This document shows positions 4,074 to 36,907 of a stretch of DNA of 64,000 bases, piece after piece. The DNA comes from Variovorax sp. GTDB taxonomy: Bacteria > Pseudomonadota > Gammaproteobacteria > Burkholderiales > Burkholderiaceae_C. The translations under genes and the position numbers were made by a program. The stretch is from positions 58,201 to 122,200 of the forward strand of contig JANOJL010000003.1 in assembly GCA_031418715.1 (NCBI GenBank), written 5' to 3'. Position 1 is the first letter of the stretch, and every line of letters begins with the position of its first letter. The notes under the pieces were generated by a model that made no database searches, had not been told where the DNA came from, and saw only the letters and a list, made by a program, of their open reading frames with translations.

Positions 4074-4913
4074 TCAATGCAAACCACGCTCTTCCGGTTC
4101 ATCCTTAGAAGTCGCGATCATGCTGGTTTGCATGCCTTTGGCTTTGCGGTAAGCGTAGATCACATATCCGCTCAAACCATAAGCGATGAAGATGCCGAAG
4201 AGGACAGTGGGTGGGTCGATGTTGATCACGGCGATGCCCAAAGCGATGAGCACGATCACGGCAAAGGGTACGCTGCGTTTCATGTTCAAATCTTTGAAGC
4301 TGTAAAACGGCACATTGGTCACCATCGTCAAGCCCGTGTAGAGCGCGAGTGCAAACATGAGCCAGCGCACCTTGATCTCTATTTGCCCCAAAAGCACGAG
4401 CGTGTCGCTGCCAGCAATGCCCAGGTCAGTCATGAGCCAAATAAATCCCATCACCAGAGCCGCCGCGGCTGGGCTCGGCAGGCCTTGAAAATAGCGTTTG
4501 TCCACCACAGCGGTGTTGACGTTGAAGCGCGCCAAGCGCAGCATCGCGCAAGAGACGTACACGAAAGCAGCGATCCAGCCCCAGCGGCCTAAATCTTTCA
4601 GCGCCCACATATAAGCAATCAGCGCGGGCGCAGCGCCAAAGCTGACCATGTCTGAGAGCGAATCCATCTGTTCGCCAAAGGCCGATTGCGTGTTCGTCAT
4701 CCGCGCGACGCGGCCGTCCAAGCTATCGAGCACCATCGCGCAAAAGATGCCAATAGCCGCTTCATGAAAGCGCCCATTCACAGCCATCACGATGCCATAA
4801 AAGCCGCCAAACAGTGCTGCCAAGGTAAACAGATTGGGCAAAATATAAATGCCCTTGCGGCGCGGCTTCGCGGGAGCCAATTCAGCGGGGTGGGTGTCGT
4901 TTCCGTCGTGCAT
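4074..4913 (-). CDS. pssA: CDP-diacylglycerol--serine O-phosphatidyltransferase
   Basis: CDP-alcohol phosphatidyltransferase motif DGRVARMTNTQSAFGEQMDSLSD in a polytopic membrane protein. Confidence 0.9.
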   Translation of the reverse strand: MHDGNDTHPAELAPAKPRRKGIYILPNLFTLAALFGGFYGIVMAVNGRFHEAAIGIFCAMVLDSLDGRVARMTNTQSAFGEQMDSLSDMVSFGAAPALIAYMWALKDLGRWGWIAAFVYVSCAMLRLARFNVNTAVVDKRYFQGLPSPAAAALVMGFIWLMTDLGIAGSDTLVLLGQIEIKVRWLMFALALYTGLTMVTNVPFYSFKDLNMKRSVPFAVIVLIALGIAVINIDPPTVLFGIFIAYGLSGYVIYAYRKAKGMQTSMIATSKDEPEERGLH

Positions 4914-6651: not shown

Positions 6652-6739
6652 GATGATTCCTCATTTCTACAGCCCTCCTCCGGTGACGGTAATCAACGGA
6701 CTTGGCTGCAAATAGATTGATCGTTAAGGTTAAAGATGA

Positions 6740-18569: not shown

Positions 18570-18646
18570 TGGTAGGCGCAATTGGACTCGAACCAACGAC
18601 CCCCACCATGTCAAGGTGGTGCTCTAACCAGCTGAGCTATGCGCCT
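18570..18646 (-). tRNA. tRNA-Val (anticodon GAC)
   Basis: The reverse complement AGGCGCATAGCTCAGCTGGTTAGAGCACCACCTTGACATGGTGGGGGTCGTTGGTTCGAGTCCAATTGCGCCTACCA folds as a cloverleaf. It has a 7-bp acceptor stem, anticodon loop TTGACAT, TPsiC GTTCGAGTC, and an encoded CCA. Confidence 0.93.
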
Positions 18647-31302: not shown

Positions 31303-31839
31303 TTATTTTTTATCCGCTAAATAAGCCGCCATGCCATCGGTGATTTCTTTGTGCGCAGAATCCACGCCTTCCCAACCGAGCACTTTGACCCACTTGCCCT
31401 CTTCCAAATCTTTGTAGTGCTCAAAGAAATGCGAGATGGTTTTCAGGCGCAGGGGGTTCATGTCTTCGGGGGTTTTCCATTGCGTGTACAGGCTGCATTT
31501 TTTGTCAATCGGCACCGCCAACAATTTCCCGTCTTCACCCGCTTCATCTTCCATCTTCAAAATGCCAATCGCACGGCAGGTAATCACCACGCCGGGGATC
31601 AAAGGCACGGGTGTGATCACCAACACATCGACTGGATCGCCATCGCCAGAAAGCGTTTTGGGGATGTAGCCGTAGTTGGTCGGGTAATGCATGGCGGTGC
31701 TCATGAAACGATCTACGAAGATCGCGCCAGATTCTTTGTCGACCTCGTATTTGATCGGGTCGGCATTCATCGGAATTTCGATGATCACGTTGAACTCATG
31801 CGGGGCGTTTTTTCCTGGATTGACTGCGTCGAGGGACAT
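31303..31839 (-). CDS. ppa: Inorganic pyrophosphatase, soluble family I
   Basis: 178 aa with [19 protein letters not shown], the family I PPase signature. Confidence 0.95.
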
Positions 31840-32064
31840 GTTGGTCTCTTTATAAAAATAATGACAAAACTAAGCTGGTATTAACCCTGATTTTACTGAT
31901 GCAAAGCTTGTAAAAGCGCGAATCTGTCACGTTTTCAGGCTAAATTCCGCTCGTTGGCCAATTGTCTGCGATTTCTTGGATGAATGTGGATGAGGAAGCA
32001 ACGCGGCGGGTGTGATACCTCACGTGTTGCGCCCTCTACGTAAAACCAAATGGAGATACTTAAT

Positions 32065-34605
32065 ATGACAGGCAATACAGCACTGATCCTTGTGCTTCTT
32101 TGCGGTCTGGCCGCCGTGGTCTACGGCGTTTGGGCGCGAAGCTGGATTCTTTCTCAAGACGCAGGCAATGCCCGCATGCAAGAGATTGCAGCGGCTATCC
32201 AATCTGGTGCAGCTGCCTATCTGGCGCGGCAATACAAAAGCATCACCATCGTGGGCGTTGTGCTAACGATTCTGATTGGCTTGTTCCTTGATGGCATGTC
32301 GGCTTTAGGCTTTGTGGTAGGCGCGGTGCTCTCGGGCGCTTGCGGCTTTATCGGCATGAATGTGTCGGTGCGCGCTAACGTGCGCACAGCACAAGCAGCC
32401 ACCAAAGGCATTGGCCCCGCGCTTGACGTTGCCTTCCGTGGCGGCGCAATCACCGGCATGCTGGTGGTGGGCTTAGGTCTGCTTGGCGTGACCATTTTTT
32501 ATTGGTTCTTGGTCGGTAATGGCGCGATGACGCCGGATAAAAACCTCGCTAAATTGCTCAACCCTCTGATCGGCTTTGCCTTTGGCTCATCGCTGATCTC
32601 CATCTTCGCCCGTCTGGGTGGCGGCATTTTCACCAAGGGCGCTGATGTGGGCGCAGATCTGGTCGGCAAAGTGGAAGCTGGCATCCCAGAAGATGATCCA
32701 CGTAACCCCGCCGTGATTGCCGATAACGTGGGCGACAACGTGGGCGATTGCGCCGGCATGGCCGCTGACTTGTTTGAAACCTATGCAGTGACGCTGATCG
32801 CCACCATGGTGCTGGGCGCTTTACTGCTCACCAGCTCCGGTACAGCTGCTGTGATCTACCCGCTGATGTTGGGCGGCGTGTCGATCATCGCTTCCATCAT
32901 TGGTTGCTTCTTCGTCAAGGCCTCGCCCGGCATGAAGAACGTGATGCCTGCGCTTTACAAAGGCTTGGCAGTGGCTGGCGGCTTGTCGCTGATCGCCTTT
33001 TATTTCGTGACCGTGGCCATCATGCCCGACAACGCGATCAAGGCCAGCGGCACGCAAATGGCGCTGTTTGCTTCTTGCGCAGTTGGCTTGATTTTGACGG
33101 GCGCTTTGGTCTGGGTGACTGAGTACTACACCGGAACGCAGTACGCACCTGTGAAGCACATTGCACAAGCCTCGACCACCGGCCACGGCACCAACATCAT
33201 TGCTGGGTTGGGCGTATCCATGCGCTCGACTGCATGGCCTGTGATTTTTGTGTGTATCGCCATTTGGTGCTCTTATTCGCTCGCTGGACTGTATGGCATT
33301 GCGATTGCTGCTACCTCTATGCTGAGCATGGCCGGTATTGTTGTGGCGCTGGACGCATACGGCCCGATCACCGACAACGCGGGCGGCATTGCCGAGATGG
33401 CCGAGTTGCCAGCCTCTGTGCGCGAAGTGACTGACCCACTGGACGCCGTGGGTAACACCACCAAAGCCGTGACCAAGGGGTATGCGATTGGCTCAGCTGG
33501 TTTGGCTGCGCTGGTGCTGTTTGCTGACTACACCCACAAGCTGGAAGCTTATGGCAAGGTCATCAGCTTTGATTTGAGCAACCCGATGGTCATCATTGGC
33601 CTGTTTATCGGTGGCTTGATTCCTTACCTCTTTGGCGCGATGGCGATGGAGGCCGTGGGCCGCGCTGCGGGCTCTGTGGTGGTTGAAGTGCGTCGCCAGT
33701 TTGCTGACGGCCAAATCATGGCTGGCAAGCGCAAGCCAGATTACAGCGCTGCGGTAGACATGCTCACCACGGCTGCAATCAAAGAAATGATGATCCCTTC
33801 GCTGCTGCCCGTGGTGGTACCAGTCGTGGTGGGCTTGGCTTTGGGCCCTGCTGCGCTGGGCGGCTTGCTCATGGGCACGATTGTGACCGGCCTGTTTGTG
33901 GCGATTTCTATGTGTACCGGTGGCGGCGCTTGGGACAATGCCAAGAAACTCATCGAAGACAGCTTCGTTGACAAAGACGGCGTGGCCCACAAAAAGGGAG
34001 GAGACACCCACAAAGCCGCTGTCACGGGCGACACTGTGGGTGATCCATACAAAGACACTGCTGGCCCAGCCATCAACCCTTTGATCAAGATCATCAACAT
34101 CGTGGCGCTTCTGATCGTGCCATTGATGATGTCGATCCATGGCAAGCCAGCACCTGTGGCGGTTGTGGCTGCGCCTGTTGCAGCGGTTGCGGCGGCCGCG
34201 ACTCCGGCTGCTGTGGCTGCTCCAGTCGTTGCGGCTGCGGCGCCAGTGGCCTCAGCTGCTGCACCTGCTGGTGATGCAGCTAGCGTGAAGGTCGATGGCG
34301 GCGTGGTGAAGTTTTACTTCGCTCCCGGCAAAATGGAACTCGCTCAAGACGGTGCCAAAGCTTTGGCGCAGATCATCGAAGCCGCCAAGAGCGGTAAGAA
34401 GGTCGGTCTCAGCGGCTATGTGGATCCAAGCGGAGATGCTGCGAAAAATGCCGAGTTGGCCAAGCAACGCGCCTTCGCTGTGCGCGATCTGCTGAAAGCC
34501 TCCGGTGTGCCCGAAGGCCAAATCGTCTTGGTTCGCCCCAATGACATCAAAGAAGGCTCGACCTCTGCTGCCGAAGGCCGCCGGGTTGAAGTGTTCATGA
34601 TCTAA
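32065..34605 (+). CDS. hppA: Membrane-bound proton/sodium-translocating pyrophosphatase fused to a C-terminal OmpA-like domain
   Basis: M-PPase motifs [39 protein letters not shown] and [20 protein letters not shown]. The core is followed by an A/P/V-rich linker (34141-34290) and an OmpA_C-like module (34291-34602; [10 protein letters not shown]...[29 protein letters not shown]...GRRVEV). ATG 32065 follows GGAGA. Confidence 0.9.
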
Positions 34606-34625
34606 AGCCCTCCAGCTTCAGCTCA

Positions 34626-34656
34626 AAGCCGCAGATTTATTTCTGCGGCTTTTTTG
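34626..34656 (+). terminator. Rho-independent terminator after hppA
   Basis: aaagccgcaga tttatt tctgcggctttttt. Confidence 0.85.
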
Positions 34657-34713: not shown

Positions 34714-35292
34714 GTGCGTCGTATTGCCCTGATCGCCACACTCGTCGTCATCGCAGCCAGCTTACTGGGTTGTGCCACACCCAAGCCGCAGCCCAAGACC
34801 CTGATGGTCTCTGAAGCCAAGCTGATGCAACTGATTAGCGGGCAGTTTCCCTTCAACAGCAAAATGCTGGATGCATTGGATGTGAGCGTAGGCTCACCGA
34901 AGATCAGTTTTGATGGGGTCAACAACAGAATCAACACCACGCTGGATTTGAATGTTGCCGGCAGCGGCATTGTTGGTTTGCTTGTGCAGCGCGAATACAA
35001 AGGCGGCATAGATTTGAGCTATGGCCTGCGCTTCGAGCCCAGCGACAACTCCGTGCGCATGACAGATGTGAAACTGGGCAAACTCAGTATCGATGGTGCA
35101 CCTGAGCTGATGCAACGCCCGATTTCCCGCCTTGGCGTCGCGCTTGCGCAAAAGCTACTGGCCGAACAAGTGCTCTACAAAGTCAGTGCGCAAGATTTGG
35201 AAGCGGCCAAGGGCTGGGGTTATAAGCCAGGCGCATTCAAGATCGCACCGGGCGGCTTAGCGATCACGCTCGATCCGATCGAGAAAAAATAA
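34714..35292 (+). CDS. DUF1439-like lipoprotein (YceB family)
   Basis: Lipobox LLGC after MRRIALIATLVVIAAS. ~190 aa. Family name is from memory. Confidence 0.6.
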   Translation: MRRIALIATLVVIAASLLGCATPKPQPKTLMVSEAKLMQLISGQFPFNSKMLDALDVSVGSPKISFDGVNNRINTTLDLNVAGSGIVGLLVQREYKGGIDLSYGLRFEPSDNSVRMTDVKLGKLSIDGAPELMQRPISRLGVALAQKLLAEQVLYKVSAQDLEAAKGWGYKPGAFKIAPGGLAITLDPIEKK

Positions 35293-35354: not shown

Positions 35355-36440
35355 TTACATCACTTCGTGCAGCGCCTGCATATAGGCCTGCGAGACCATC
35401 AACTCATCCCAAGCCAATGGCGCCATTTGCGGTAACAGATTCAACCGGCGCTGCTCACTCATCTCACTCAGTTTGAATTTCTTTTTGCTACTCGCTAATT
35501 CCAAGCCTTCGAGTAATTCGTCTACCGCCCTGCCCTCATCGCCCACGCTTTGGTTGCACAGCAGAACCATATCGCAGCCCGCATTGAGTGCTTCCACGGC
35601 CGCTTGTGTGTAACTCACGCGCTTGCCATCGATCAAGCGAGCGCCTTCCATGCTCAGATCGTCGCTGAAAATCGCGCCGGTAAAGCCAAAATCACCACGC
35701 AAAATCTCTTGCAGCCAGCGTTTAGAAAACCCCGCTGGCCGACCATCCACTTTCGGGTAGATCACATGCGCAGGCATCACTGAATGCAAACCGTGGCTAA
35801 GCCACTGATAAGGCGCAGCATCATCCGCCAAAATCGCTTTCAAACTGCGCTTGTCCACCGGAATCTCGGTGTGTGAATCAGCCTTCACAAAACCATGCCC
35901 CGGAAAATGCTTGCCGCAACTGCTCATTCCCGCCAGCAGCAGCCCATGCATCAAACTCTTGGCCAAGAGCGTAGCCACGCGCGGATCACGGTGGAATGCG
36001 CGGTCTCCAATCACCGAGCTGCCGCCGTAGTCCAAATCGAGCACGGGTGTGAAGCTCATGTCCACACCGCAAGCGCGCAGCTCAGCCGCGAGCACATAAC
36101 CGCAAGCCGTGGCGGCATTTGTCGCTTTCATCGCACCGCTACCGGAGGGGAGCTTTCCATCCTGCATCCATAGCTCGCCCAGCTTGCGCATCGGCGGCAA
36201 ATGCGTGAAGCCATCCGTCTTGAAGCGCTGCACGCGCCCGCCCTCATGATCCACAAGGATGAGCAAATCTGAGCGCACCGCTTTGATCTCAGCGCACAAA
36301 TGCGTCAGCTGCATGCGGTCTTGCCAATTGCGCGCAAACAAAATCACGCCTCCTGTGAGCGGATGCGCAAGGCGGCGGCGATCATGCGCATTCAGCGTGA
36401 GGGCAGCCACGTCAAGGATGATGGGGGCGTGATGGGTCAT
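35355..36440 (-). CDS. nagZ: Beta-N-acetylhexosaminidase (GH3)
   Basis: KHFPGHG and the D...GG GH3 motifs, ~360 aa. ATG 36440 chosen because the track's N-terminal extension reads through a repeat element. Confidence 0.9.
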   Translation of the reverse strand: MTHHAPIILDVAALTLNAHDRRRLAHPLTGGVILFARNWQDRMQLTHLCAEIKAVRSDLLILVDHEGGRVQRFKTDGFTHLPPMRKLGELWMQDGKLPSGSGAMKATNAATACGYVLAAELRACGVDMSFTPVLDLDYGGSSVIGDRAFHRDPRVATLLAKSLMHGLLLAGMSSCGKHFPGHGFVKADSHTEIPVDKRSLKAILADDAAPYQWLSHGLHSVMPAHVIYPKVDGRPAGFSKRWLQEILRGDFGFTGAIFSDDLSMEGARLIDGKRVSYTQAAVEALNAGCDMVLLCNQSVGDEGRAVDELLEGLELASSKKKFKLSEMSEQRRLNLLPQMAPLAWDELMVSQAYMQALHEVM

Positions 36441-36457
36441 GGTTTTCTTTCTATGAA

Positions 36458-36512
36458 TTTGATAGCATCTTGCGCATATCTTATAACGGCCAGAGGCCGA
36501 TTTGGCACTTAA
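36458..36512 (+). repeat. Family-A repeat, copy 8
   Basis: tttgatagcatcttgcgcatatcttataacggccagaggccgatttggcacttaatt. Its tail contains the acpS stop codon on the opposite strand. Confidence 0.85.
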
Positions 36513-36907
36513 TTTGAAGCGGTTTCCACCACACAAAACGAAGCCGCGTAATCTGTCTCATCCGTCACGGTGATGTGCGCCTTCAATTGTTTGGCTTCAA
36601 ACCACTCTTTCAAACCGCCATGCAAGACGATGCGCGGCTCACCTGAAGGCAGCTTGGCGATTTCGCAGAGCCGCCAAGTCATGGGCATGCGCATGCCCAA
36701 TCCAATCGCTTTGGAAAACGCTTCCTTCGCAGAAAACCGCGTAGCCAGATAACGCACCCCCCGCTCAGGCCAACGCGCAGTGCGCTGCTTCCAAGTGATC
36801 AGCTCAGCATCGCTCAAAATCTTGCTTGCAAAGCGCTCGCCATGCTTATCCAAGCTGGCTTTGATGCGGCGAATGTCGCAGATGTCGGTGCCGATGCCGT
36901 AGATCAA
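36509..36907 (-). CDS. acpS: Holo-[acyl-carrier-protein] synthase
   Basis: [15 protein letters not shown]...AKEAFSKA are 4'-phosphopantetheinyl transferase motifs. It overlaps the pdxJ stop by 4 nt. Confidence 0.93.

What the first reader, a model, noticed from the sequence alone, without database searches (positions are those of the whole stretch)
34141..34605. Membrane pyrophosphatase fused to a C-terminal OmpA-like peptidoglycan-binding domain
**Seen in the sequence.** After the last M-PPase helix (…[16 protein letters not shown]) the ORF continues for 154 aa. The first ~50 aa form an Ala/Pro/Val linker. An OmpA_C-type module follows: [20 protein letters not shown]…[45 protein letters not shown]…GRRVEV.

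**Established knowledge.** As I recall it, 16-helix M-PPases have both termini on the non-cytoplasmic side (periplasm or lumen). The appended domain would therefore face the peptidoglycan.

**Inference.** The pump would be tethered to the cell wall, in the way MotB, Pal and OmpA use this domain. I am not aware of such a fusion being characterised.
Basis: partly seen in the sequence, partly recalled or inferred. Interest (0 to 1): 0.66.

Follow-up and report, generated by a model that had tools for sequence, protein, structure and literature searches.

The report
Proton-pumping pyrophosphatase with cell-wall anchor
A membrane proton pump driven by pyrophosphate carries a conserved extra tail that probably anchors it to the bacterial cell wall; this fusion is real and common in one bacterial family, was already noted in a 2024 review, and has never been tested in the laboratory.

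Summary
ORF 32050..34605 (+) encodes 851 aa. It has a complete M-PPase (Pfam H_PPase, 885 bits), a 47-aa Ala/Val/Pro spacer, and an OmpA-family module scoring 46-51 bits against a gathering cutoff of 27.2.

The pump has K12.46, T12.49 and E6.53, which marks it as a K+-independent H+-PPase despite the database label "sodium-translocating".

The fusion is not an artefact. 54 species-representative loci (about 45 complete, the rest contig-end fragments) from Variovorax, Polaromonas, Rhodoferax, Ideonella, Rhizobacter, Sphaerotilus and related MAGs carry it in one frame. The module is under purifying selection (dN/dS 0.07-0.20). A terminator follows the stop codon.

- **PG-binding features:** the module keeps the Asp/Arg pair (D792, R807) that binds diaminopimelate in A. 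baumannii OmpA. Its model matches only OmpA-like peptidoglycan-binding structures.
- **Topology:** 16 helices with a cytoplasmic loop 5-6 put the C-terminus in the periplasm. The spacer is not a conserved 17th helix. The same module is also fused to a periplasmic cytochrome c.

Cell-wall tethering is therefore well supported in silico but untested.

It is not new. A 2024 review (PMC11210485) reported the same architecture in Paucibacter and relatives, with its role "to be elucidated". Interest is modest.

The parts
32050..34605 (+). Complete hppA::ompA-like fusion ORF (851 aa plus TAA stop)
   Evidence: ORF; H_PPase plus OmpA in one protein; same single frame in 54 related loci
32110..34116 (+). 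M-PPase core (residues 21-689, Pfam H_PPase). Contains the catalytic motifs DVGADLVGK (32644-32670) and DNVGDNVGD (32722-32748)
   Evidence: 885 bits, profile 2-645 of 645; NF001951, 1169 bits; TIGR01104, 870 bits; end-to-end alignment to PaPPase 8b37, VrPPase 4a01 and TmPPase 4av3; motif coordinates
33463..33474 (+). K472 (position 12.46) and T475 (position 12.49) within [10 protein letters not shown]: the signature of K+-independent H+-PPases. E243 (position 6.53) lies at 32776-32778
   Evidence: alignment: query [10 protein letters not shown], PaPPase GNTTKATTKG, Vigna GNTTAAIGKG; PMC10897367: A12.46K and G/A12.49T define K+-independence, which arose only in H+-PPases
34060..34146 (+). Last transmembrane helix (TM16) and its exit: ...[24 protein letters not shown]
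   Evidence: hydropathy segment 671-699; Wimley-White -9.2 kcal/mol; aligned to the C-terminal helix of the solved M-PPases; conserved in all fused homologs
34141..34281 (+). Ala/Val/Pro-rich flexible spacer (residues 698-744; 25 A, 9 V, 7 P)
   Evidence: composition; Wimley-White +3.4 to +4.9 and Hessa +4.6 or more, so membrane insertion is unfavourable; no predicted secondary structure, low pLDDT; length 21-84 aa across 53 homologs; insertion unfavourable in 49 of 54, too short in 3
34282..34602 (+). Compact OmpA-like (peptidoglycan-binding type) module, residues 745-851; Pfam OmpA match at residues 756-828 (34315-34533)
   Evidence: 46-51 bits against GA 27.2; profile against PDB: TagL 6.6e-10, YiaD 1.7e-9, Pal, OmpA, MotY; Foldseek hits are OmpA-like domains only, TM up to 0.72; dN/dS 0.07-0.20
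34423..34425 (+). D792 (in SGYVD), equivalent to AbOmpA D271, a diaminopimelate-binding residue
   Evidence: Asp in at least 90% of 81 modules; aligned to the TD of TagL and YiaD; PMC6572160: D271 and R286 are critical for DAP binding
34468..34470 (+). R807 (in [10 protein letters not shown]), equivalent to AbOmpA R286, a diaminopimelate-binding residue
   Evidence: [10 protein letters not shown] invariant in 81 modules
34625..34652 (+). Intrinsic terminator: 11-bp stem with 6 G-C pairs, followed by a T-run, 20 nt after the stop codon
   Evidence: the sequence is shown
31303..31839 (-). Divergently transcribed soluble family I inorganic pyrophosphatase (ppa), 210 bp upstream of hppA. A conserved neighbour of the fusion gene
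   Evidence: PF00719, 189.6 bits; ppa in the same position in 44 fused loci; 210-bp intergenic gap

Best explanation
The gene encodes a K+-independent, H+-translocating membrane pyrophosphatase (HppA). Its 16th helix exits into the periplasm and continues through a ~45-residue flexible Ala/Pro/Val spacer into a compact OmpA-like module.

The module keeps the Asp/Arg pair that holds the meso-diaminopimelate of peptidoglycan stem peptides. It most likely anchors the pump non-covalently to the sacculus, as MotB, TagL/TssL, Pal and OmpA anchor their partners. M-PPases are homodimers, so each pump would carry two such modules.

The likely consequence is an immobilised pump that also acts as an inner-membrane-to-wall tether.

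- **Shown here:** domain identities, single-frame conservation, purifying selection, conservation of the ligand-binding residues.
- **Inferred here:** periplasmic placement, from the topology of solved homologs and the properties of the spacer.
- **Not shown:** actual peptidoglycan binding and the physiological benefit.
For: **Architecture.** One ORF carries full-length H_PPase plus OmpA above the Pfam cutoff.

**Pump subclass.** K12.46, T12.49 and E6.53 are present, and the best PDB match is the K+-insensitive H+ pump 8b37.

**Real and conserved.**
- 54 related loci (about 45 complete, the rest contig-end fragments) carry the fusion in one frame, including the cultured strains Variovorax paradoxus NBRC 15149, V. 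boronicumulans, Variovorax sp. PCZ-1 and Ideonella sp. A288.
- Module dN/dS is 0.07 and 0.20 in two clades.
- A terminator follows the stop codon, and there is no comparable signal at the junction.

**Peptidoglycan-binding type.**
- [10 protein letters not shown] and RRVE are invariant in 81 modules, and the Asp is present in at least 90%.
- These positions align with the DAP-binding D271/R286 of AbOmpA.
- The AF2 model has a beta/alpha OmpA-like order of elements, and Foldseek returns only OmpA-like PG-binding domains: PA0833, YiaD, OprF, TagL, Pal, MotB, AbOmpA.

**Periplasmic location.**
- M-PPases have 16 TMHs, and loop 5-6 closes the cytoplasmic active site (PMC5150537). The end of TM16 therefore lies on the opposite, periplasmic side.
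- The query aligns end to end with the solved pumps.
- Spacer length varies from 21 to 84 aa. Insertion is energetically unfavourable in 49 of 54 homologs, and 3 spacers are too short to span a membrane.
- The same module is fused to a c-type cytochrome domain in Methylibium.
Against: - No experiment exists, and none was found in the literature.
- No dedicated topology predictor was available. By Kyte-Doolittle the window's spacer is borderline hydrophobic (1.94), and 2 of 54 homolog spacers have a marginally favourable insertion energy.
- The structure model has only moderate confidence (mean pLDDT 58.9).
- The module is a shortened OmpA variant. Its Pfam match covers profile positions 1-77 of 98, and about five residues are missing before the last strand. 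Its binding behaviour could therefore differ.
- The stand-alone paralogs have an acidic N-tail and basic residues after their TM helix. By the positive-inside rule this would put their module in the cytoplasm, which is an unexplained inconsistency.
- Nothing indicates why a PPi-driven proton pump should benefit from wall anchoring.
Confidence: 0.65

Rival explanations
1. The module binds peptidoglycan, but its purpose is to serve the envelope and not the pump. An abundant 16-helix inner-membrane protein is used as an anchor for an inner-membrane-to-wall tether. This would duplicate the role of the stand-alone single-helix-anchored paralog, and pump activity would be unaffected.
For: - The same module family occurs mostly as ~175-aa proteins with just a TM anchor.
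- It is also found on other carriers: cytochrome c and YidB-like proteins.
- Fused and stand-alone modules are interleaved in the tree, which suggests a portable anchoring unit.
Against: - Genomes that have the stand-alone paralog still keep the fusion: three MAGs have both.
- The fusion partner is specifically HppA across more than 50 species, which suggests a pump-specific benefit.
- The physical mechanism is the same as in the best explanation, so this rival differs only in who benefits.
Confidence: 0.2
2. The tail is regulatory. Engagement of the module with peptidoglycan pulls on TM16, an inner-ring helix carrying ion-gate residues, and so modulates the exit channel. This would be analogous to stator activation when MotB binds the wall.
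For: - The tail is attached directly to TM16, which carries the gate residues 16.46 and 16.50 (PMC5150537).
- Exit-channel loops influence ion selectivity (PMC10897367).
- MotB-type domains are among the structural matches.
Against: - A floppy spacer of 21-84 aa with variable length transmits force poorly.
- No plug-like conserved segment is visible in the spacer.
- There is no direct evidence.
Confidence: 0.08
3. The OmpA-like module binds something other than peptidoglycan, for example a periplasmic or outer-membrane protein partner. Alternatively the spacer is cleaved, so that the pump merely serves as an export vehicle for a soluble periplasmic module.
For: - The module is a shortened OmpA variant.
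- Ala/Pro-rich spacers are typically protease-accessible (general knowledge).
- The module has no signal peptide of its own.
Against: - The DAP-binding Asp and Arg and the NxxLxxxRA core are strictly conserved.
- The closest solved relatives are experimentally established PG binders: TagL, YiaD, Pal, AbOmpA.
Confidence: 0.1
4. The Ala/Val/Pro stretch forms a 17th transmembrane helix and the module is cytoplasmic.
For: - Kyte-Doolittle hydropathy of the window spacer is 1.94, above the usual 1.6 threshold.
- The charge distribution around the TM helix of the stand-alone paralogs would favour a cytoplasmic C-terminal part.
Against: - Wimley-White and Hessa scales give unfavourable insertion, +3.4 to +4.9 and +4.6 or more.
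- There are seven prolines in 47 residues.
- In 49 of 54 homologs insertion is unfavourable, and 3 spacers are too short to span a membrane.
- 35 of 54 spacers contain interior charged residues.
- A cytochrome c fusion of the same module must be periplasmic.
- An OmpA-like domain has no known cytoplasmic ligand.
Confidence: 0.03
5. The fusion is an assembly or sequencing artefact (a lost stop codon or a frameshift) that joins two adjacent genes.
For: Most close homologs of the tail in the protein database are separate ~175-aa proteins.
Against: - Those proteins have their own N-terminal TM anchor.
- They lie elsewhere in the genome, between chaC and edd-eda, with no hppA within 6 kb.
- 54 independent assemblies, including complete genomes, carry the same in-frame fusion.
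- The module is under purifying selection.
Confidence: 0.01

Closest known systems
M-PPase with C-terminal OmpA-like domain from Paucibacter sp. KCTC 42545 (UniProt A0A0U2VTE8, WP_058719013.1), described in silico in PeerJ 2024;12:e17496 (PMC11210485)
   Same: Same architecture: a K+-insensitive M-PPase plus a ~110-residue C-terminal OmpA-like domain. Same order (Burkholderiales). The review also names examples from Polaromonas, Rhizobacter, Acidovorax and Rubrivivax.
   Different: - 810 aa against 851 aa here, and a different genus (the window is closest to Variovorax-like MAGs).
- The review did not analyse topology, ligand-binding residues, distribution, selection or paralogs.
- It left the role 'to be elucidated'.
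K+-independent H+-PPases without a tail: Pyrobaculum aerophilum PaPPase (PDB 8b37) and the Rhodospirillum rubrum type
   Same: The pump core aligns end to end (query 13-694, 504 bits). It has K12.46, T12.49, E6.53 and all catalytic Asp motifs.
   Different: Those enzymes end a few residues after TM16. The window protein adds 152 residues of spacer plus OmpA-like module.
MotB/PomB and the TagL / long-form TssL of type VI secretion: inner-membrane proteins with a C-terminal periplasmic OmpA-like domain
   Same: - An inner-membrane anchor, a periplasmic linker and an OmpA-like PG-binding domain that fixes a membrane machine to the wall.
- TagL is the best sequence match in the PDB (6.6e-10), and MotB is among the fold matches.
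   Different: - Those are one- to few-helix subunits of multi-protein machines, and MotB has a plug and a proton-channel Asp.
- Here the anchor is a complete 16-helix primary ion pump.
- NCBIfam scores for MotB and TssL models are far below their cutoffs.
Stand-alone TM-anchored 'OmpA family protein' paralogs of Comamonadaceae (for example Variovorax sp. PCZ-1 protein P0103, and loci L007-L012)
   Same: The same Ala/Pro spacer and the same module, 82-88% identical to the window tail. Three MAGs carry both the paralog and the fusion.
   Different: - They have their own single N-terminal TM helix in place of the pump.
- They occupy a separate conserved locus, between chaC and edd-eda.
Pal, OmpA C-terminal domain, YiaD and PA0833: outer-membrane-anchored OmpA-like PG binders
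   Same: The same fold and the same DAP-binding Asp/Arg pair.
   Different: - They are anchored in the outer membrane by a lipid or a beta-barrel.
- Their domain is longer. The window module lacks about five residues before the last strand, and its Pfam match stops at profile position 77 of 98.

Membership tests
Membrane-bound pyrophosphatase (Pfam PF03030 H_PPase) | Full-length match to the family profile above the curated cutoff | tested here: met
   885 bits against a cutoff of 29.7, profile positions 2-645 of 645. NF001951 scores 1169 bits against 859, and TIGR01104 scores 870 against 652.
Membrane-bound pyrophosphatase (Pfam PF03030 H_PPase) | Sixteen transmembrane helices and conserved cytoplasmic Asp/Lys catalytic motifs | tested here: met
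   - End-to-end alignment without large gaps to the 16-TMH structures 8b37, 4a01 and 4av3.
- Hydrophobic segments run throughout residues 3-699.
- DVGADLVGK and DNVGDNVGD are present.
- The helices were not counted with a dedicated predictor.
Membrane-bound pyrophosphatase (Pfam PF03030 H_PPase) | PPi hydrolysis coupled to cation transport | not testable with these tools
   Requires an enzyme assay or vesicle acidification.
K+-independent H+-PPase subclass | Lys at 12.46 and Thr at 12.49 (GNTTKAxT), with Glu at 6.53 | tested here: met
   K472, T475 and E243. The rule and the restriction of K+-independence to H+-PPases come from PMC10897367. The database name 'sodium-translocating' is therefore probably a generic label.
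OmpA-like / OmpA_C peptidoglycan-binding domain (Pfam PF00691) | Profile match above the gathering score | tested here: met
   46.0 bits in the full protein and 49.8-51.3 bits on the tail alone, against 27.2. The match covers only profile positions 1-77 of 98, so this is a shortened variant.
OmpA-like / OmpA_C peptidoglycan-binding domain (Pfam PF00691) | Beta/alpha sandwich fold of OmpA-like domains | tested here: met
   - The AF2 model gives strands and helices in the order b-b-a-b-a-b-b.
- The 50 listed Foldseek PDB hits (88 with E <= 0.001) are OmpA-like domains, with target-normalised TM up to 0.72 for Pal.
- Caveat: mean pLDDT is only 58.9.
OmpA-like / OmpA_C peptidoglycan-binding domain (Pfam PF00691) | Conserved Asp and Arg that bind meso-diaminopimelate (AbOmpA D271 and R286) | tested here: met
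   D792 and R807 align to the TD...RA positions of TagL, YiaD and PA0833. The Arg is invariant and the Asp is present in at least 90% of 81 modules. The residue roles come from PMC6572160.
OmpA-like / OmpA_C peptidoglycan-binding domain (Pfam PF00691) | Periplasmic location | tested here: inconclusive
   - Strong indirect support: 16 TMHs with a cytoplasmic loop 5-6 place the C-terminus outside.
- The spacer is not a conserved TM helix.
- The same module sits on a cytochrome c.
- No dedicated topology predictor or experiment was available, and the charge pattern of the stand-alone paralogs is anomalous.
OmpA-like / OmpA_C peptidoglycan-binding domain (Pfam PF00691) | Non-covalent binding to peptidoglycan | not testable with these tools
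   Needs a sacculus pull-down, or ITC with DAP-containing muropeptides.
MotB/PomB stator subunit | Single N-terminal TM helix with a proton-binding Asp, a plug segment, and partnership with MotA | tested here: not met
   - The membrane part is a 16-helix M-PPase.
- MotB/MotD NCBIfam models score 16-21 bits against cutoffs of 250-283.
- No conserved plug-like segment is present in the spacer.
- It resembles MotB only in how it is anchored.
Peptidoglycan-associated lipoprotein Pal | Lipobox signal peptide, outer-membrane lipid anchor, TolB partnership | tested here: not met
   TIGR02802 scores 25.7-30 bits against a cutoff of 125. There is no lipobox, because the module is internal to a polytopic inner-membrane protein.

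The most novel reading that the evidence does not exclude
Wall anchoring is functionally coupled to pumping. The two OmpA-like modules of the HppA dimer would engage peptidoglycan and then do one of two things. They could position the pump at defined envelope sites, for example zones of wall synthesis where PPi-generating reactions are intense. Or they could mechanically bias TM16 and the exit channel, making this a wall-gated primary ion pump analogous to MotB-activated stators. The conserved divergent pairing with the soluble ppa would then reflect a switch between energy-conserving and energy-dissipating PPi disposal.
Probability: 0.1. Interest if true: 0.7.

Novelty: already known. Interest (0 to 1): 0.33.

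Why it matters
M-PPases are usually treated as free-standing, self-sufficient pumps. This lineage-wide fusion shows that in one large family of environmental Betaproteobacteria (Comamonadaceae and neighbours) the pump is built to be attached to the cell wall. It is a primary ion pump carrying its own wall anchor.

If binding is confirmed, the fusion offers a simple natural system for asking what immobilising an inner-membrane transporter does to its activity, its localisation and the mechanics of the envelope.

It also has a practical consequence for annotation. These proteins are labelled 'sodium-translocating pyrophosphatase' although their signature residues indicate K+-independent proton pumps.

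The architecture has already been pointed out in a 2024 review, and the mechanism proposed is a conventional use of the OmpA-like domain. The finding is therefore a solid but modest lead, not a surprise.

Tried and rejected
1. **Artefact or split gene: rejected.** Close homologs of the tail are mostly separate ~175-aa proteins. These have their own TM anchor and lie in a different locus with no hppA nearby. 54 loci carry the in-frame fusion.

2. **Spacer as a 17th helix: rejected as a conserved feature**. My first charged-residue count ('50 of 53') was flawed because it included the boundary His, Lys and Asp. I redid it with interior residues only.

3. **Survey through the 50%-identity representative library: uninformative for fusion frequency.** None of the 150 listed hits is longer than 771 aa. 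The likely reason is that fused proteins are represented by other M-PPases. The search only showed that the module family is dominated by small stand-alone proteins.

4. **Recent gene conversion between tail and paralog: not supported.** DNA identity is only 75-81% over ~390 bp.

5. **Explicit open-access statement that both M-PPase termini are periplasmic or lumenal: not found**. I used the deduction from 16 TMHs plus a cytoplasmic loop 5-6 instead. That both termini face the lumen or periplasm in the crystal structures is my own recollection.

6. **Genomic context of the stand-alone paralog: gave no functional hint.** Its neighbours are chaC and edd-eda.

7. **Promoter scan: nothing above chance.** One site was found against 2.1 expected.

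8. **Literature search for experimental work on the fusion: found none**.
Full report
**1. Observation**

The window contains one uninterrupted ORF at 32050..34605 on the + strand, encoding 851 aa. Pfam places a complete H_PPase domain on residues 21-689 (885 bits, profile 2-645 of 645). It places an OmpA-family domain on residues 756-828. The OmpA match scores 46 bits in the full protein and 49.8-51.3 bits on the isolated tail, against a gathering score of 27.2.

NCBIfam confirms the pump (NF001951, 1169 bits). For the tail it gives a series of sub-threshold hits to YiaD, PdsO, TpgA, Pal, OmpA, MotB and TssL models. The tail is therefore an OmpA-like module that belongs to none of those named subfamilies.

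The stretch between the last helix (...[11 protein letters not shown], ending at residue 699) and the module is 47 aa, with 25 Ala, 9 Val and 7 Pro. The only correction is that 152 residues, not 154, follow the Lys.

**2. Is the fusion real?**

A search with the tail first gave an apparent warning. Nearly all close homologs (75-91% identity) are separate proteins of 170-185 aa labelled 'OmpA family protein'. Only a few contig-end fragments contained the ...LMMSIHGK junction.

The separate proteins turn out to be paralogs. Each has its own N-terminal anchor (MFSQDD..., one hydrophobic helix, a Lys-rich patch), followed by the same Ala/Pro spacer and module.

A scan of one genome per species returned 80 loci, all Comamonadaceae or neighbouring Burkholderiales.

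- In 54 of them the module lies in the same open frame as a full M-PPase that is 78-97% identical to the window's pump. About 45 of these are complete, and the rest are contig-end fragments that still carry the TM16 junction.
- These include complete or cultured genomes: Variovorax paradoxus NBRC 15149, V. boronicumulans, Variovorax sp. PCZ-1, Root473 and Ideonella sp. A288.
- They also include MAGs of Polaromonas, Rhodoferax, Rhizobacter and Sphaerotilus.
- The best match is a Variovorax MAG (L001: pump 96.7%, tail 93%).
- The stand-alone genes never have an hppA within 6 kb.
- In two distant genomes they sit between chaC and edd-eda.
- Three MAGs carry both forms.

The module is under purifying selection. 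dN/dS is 0.07 in the window clade, where dS is near saturation, and 0.20 in the V. paradoxus clade. The last 200 residues of the pump give 0.04 and 0.12.

A strong intrinsic terminator follows the stop codon at 34625-34652, and there is no comparable signal at the junction. An artefact, a read-through or a split gene is excluded.

**3. What kind of pump?**

The alignment to solved structures shows [10 protein letters not shown], against PaPPase GNTTKATTKG and Vigna GNTTAAIGKG. This gives Lys at 12.46 (K472) and Thr at 12.49 (T475), with the semi-conserved Glu at 6.53 (E243).

According to PMC10897367, these two coupled changes define K+-independence, which evolved only in H+-PPases. The best PDB match is the K+-insensitive proton pump 8b37 (504 bits). 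The protein is therefore most likely a K+-independent H+-PPase. The 'sodium-translocating' name in NCBIfam and RefSeq is generic.

**4. What kind of tail?**

Across 81 modules, fused and stand-alone, the core pattern is vkFyFa..AL..G..sG..d..Gd..[10 protein letters not shown]..v..RRVEv. Capitals mark invariant positions and lower case marks positions conserved in at least 90%.

A profile of 15 diverse modules hits the PDB chains of TagL (6.6e-10), YiaD, PA0833, Rv0899, OmpA, YfiB, Pal and MotY. The alignment puts 'SGyhDasGd..[10 protein letters not shown]' on TagL 'SGHTDNTGD..RNQALSLKRA'.

D792 and R807 thus correspond to A. baumannii OmpA D271 and R286. By mutagenesis and calorimetry, that pair is critical for binding the diaminopimelate of peptidoglycan (PMC6572160).

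An AlphaFold2 model of the 154-aa tail has only moderate confidence (mean pLDDT 58.9, from a shallow alignment).

- It gives an unstructured spacer (residues 1-47).
- It gives a b-b-a-b-a-b-b module.
- Foldseek against the PDB returns only OmpA-like peptidoglycan-binding domains, with target-normalised TM up to 0.72 for Pal.

The module is a compact variant. The Pfam match ends at profile position 77 of 98, and about five residues are missing before the last strand.

**5. Which side of the membrane?**

M-PPase protomers have 16 TMHs. The hydrolytic centre and the loop 5-6 that closes it are cytoplasmic (PMC5150537). It follows that the N-terminus and the end of TM16 lie on the other side, the periplasm. 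The query aligns end to end with these structures.

One caveat is that the window's spacer is hydrophobic by Kyte-Doolittle (1.94), so a naive predictor might call it a 17th helix. Several results argue against that.

| Test | Result |
|---|---|
| Wimley-White octanol energy, best 19-mers of the window spacer | +3.4 to +4.9 kcal/mol |
| Wimley-White octanol energy, peaks of the hydrophobic segments in the pump core | -0.4 to -12.4 kcal/mol |
| Hessa scale, window spacer | +4.6 or more |
| Spacer length across fused homologs | 21-84 aa, median 44 (n = 53) |
| Homologs with interior charged residues in the spacer | 35 of 54 |
| Homologs with unfavourable best 19-mer | 49 of 54 |
| Homologs with spacer interior shorter than 19 aa | 3 of 54 |
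| Homologs with marginally favourable best 19-mer | 2 of 54 |

Independently, the same module is fused behind a c-type cytochrome domain (PF13442) in Methylibium. By general knowledge such a domain matures in the periplasm. I could not run a dedicated topology predictor, so I rate the periplasmic location as strongly inferred and not shown.

**6. Mechanism**

A proton-pumping pyrophosphatase is tethered through a flexible spacer to the peptidoglycan by a non-covalent, DAP-recognising OmpA-like module. This is how MotB, TagL/TssL, Pal and OmpA use the domain.

- A spacer of ~45 residues could extend over 100 angstroms if fully stretched (my estimate).
- Because M-PPases are homodimers, each pump would present two modules.
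- What the cell gains is unknown. Options include an immobilised or positioned pump, an added inner-membrane-to-wall tether, or, least likely, mechanical regulation through TM16.
- Rivals such as a different ligand, cleavage of the tail, or a cytoplasmic module have low support.

**7. Comparison with what is known, and novelty**

The fusion is not new as an observation. A 2024 review (PeerJ 12:e17496, PMC11210485) looked for unusually long M-PPases and found the 810-aa K+-insensitive enzyme of Paucibacter sp. KCTC 42545.

- It identified the extra 110 residues as OmpA-like by HMMER and AlphaFold2.
- It named examples from Burkholderiales, Rubrivivax, Rhizobacter, Acidovorax and Polaromonas.
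- It stated that the role of the domain 'remains to be elucidated'.

I found no experimental study.

The present analysis adds the following:

- the breadth of the fusion (54 loci from species-representative genomes);
- purifying selection on the module;
- the conserved DAP-binding residues;
- the topology argument;
- the subclass assignment of the pump;
- the existence of stand-alone and other-carrier versions of the same module;
- the conserved divergent ppa neighbour.

The window's protein is an ortholog within a described architecture, so I rate it 'already known', meaning known in silico but functionally uncharacterised.

**8. Verdict**

- The novelty claim is not upheld.
- Interest is 0.33. 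This is a tidy, conserved and experimentally tractable oddity, but it is a conventional use of a common anchoring domain and has already been pointed out in print.

Noticed in passing
window 31303-31839 (-), and 44 related loci: A soluble family I inorganic pyrophosphatase (ppa, PF00719) is transcribed divergently from the fused hppA, across a 210-bp intergenic region. This head-to-head pairing is conserved in 44 fused loci from many genera. It suggests coordinated or reciprocal regulation of PPi disposal that conserves energy (the pump) and PPi disposal that dissipates it (the soluble enzyme).
   Followed up: partly
loci L007, L008, L010-L012, L025-L029, L033, L035, L037, L041, L046, L047, L053, L056, L059, L061, L065, L067, L072; proteins P0003-P0120: Stand-alone ~175-aa paralogs carry the same spacer and module behind their own single TM helix. 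The N-tail is acidic (MFSQDDE...) and basic residues follow the helix (QKNKSAK...). By the positive-inside rule this would put the OmpA-like module in the cytoplasm, which contradicts the periplasmic placement implied by the pump and cytochrome c fusions. This is unexplained.
   Followed up: partly
L032:5176-6312 (Methylibium sp. NZG); L014:5140-6333 (Polaromonas MAG); protein P0121: The same compact OmpA-like module is attached to other carriers. One is a c-type cytochrome domain (PF13442). Another is a YidB-like domain (PF20159), and P0121 has three tandem modules after it. The module behaves as a portable unit.
   Followed up: partly
module tree of 81 sequences; pairs L002/L010, L005/L007, L003/L012, L013/L014: - Fused tails and stand-alone modules from the same lineage cluster together and do not group by architecture. 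The window tail is 82-88% identical to the stand-alone paralogs of its own clade, but only ~55% identical to V. paradoxus fused tails.
- DNA identity within a genome is 75-81% over ~390 bp and runs ~50 bp past the stop codon.
- This suggests lineage-specific duplication or module replacement, or old gene conversion.
   Followed up: partly
window 32050-34605; NCBIfam hits: The curated best-hit name is 'sodium-translocating pyrophosphatase' (NF001951). The protein has K12.46, T12.49 and E6.53, the signature of K+-independent H+-PPases. This is probably a systematic naming problem for the whole clade.
   Followed up: yes
window 34714-35292 (+): A 192-aa ORF directly downstream begins MRRIALIATLVVIAASLLGC, a lipobox-like signal. 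It has no Pfam match at E <= 0.01. It is conserved downstream of the fusion only in the window's own clade, in seven loci. nagZ (GH3, 35355-36536, - strand) follows it.
   Followed up: partly
L049 (Variovorax sp. E3), about position 4090: The M-PPase match is split into two frames near residue 96. This is either a frameshift pseudogene or a sequencing error in that draft genome.
   Followed up: no
window 6654-6722 (-) and 18570-18646 (-): There is an ilvH cis-regulatory RNA (RF02993, 62.5 bits against a gathering score of 55.1) and a tRNA-Val(GAC). These are the only Rfam and ARAGORN hits in the 64-kb window.
   Followed up: no
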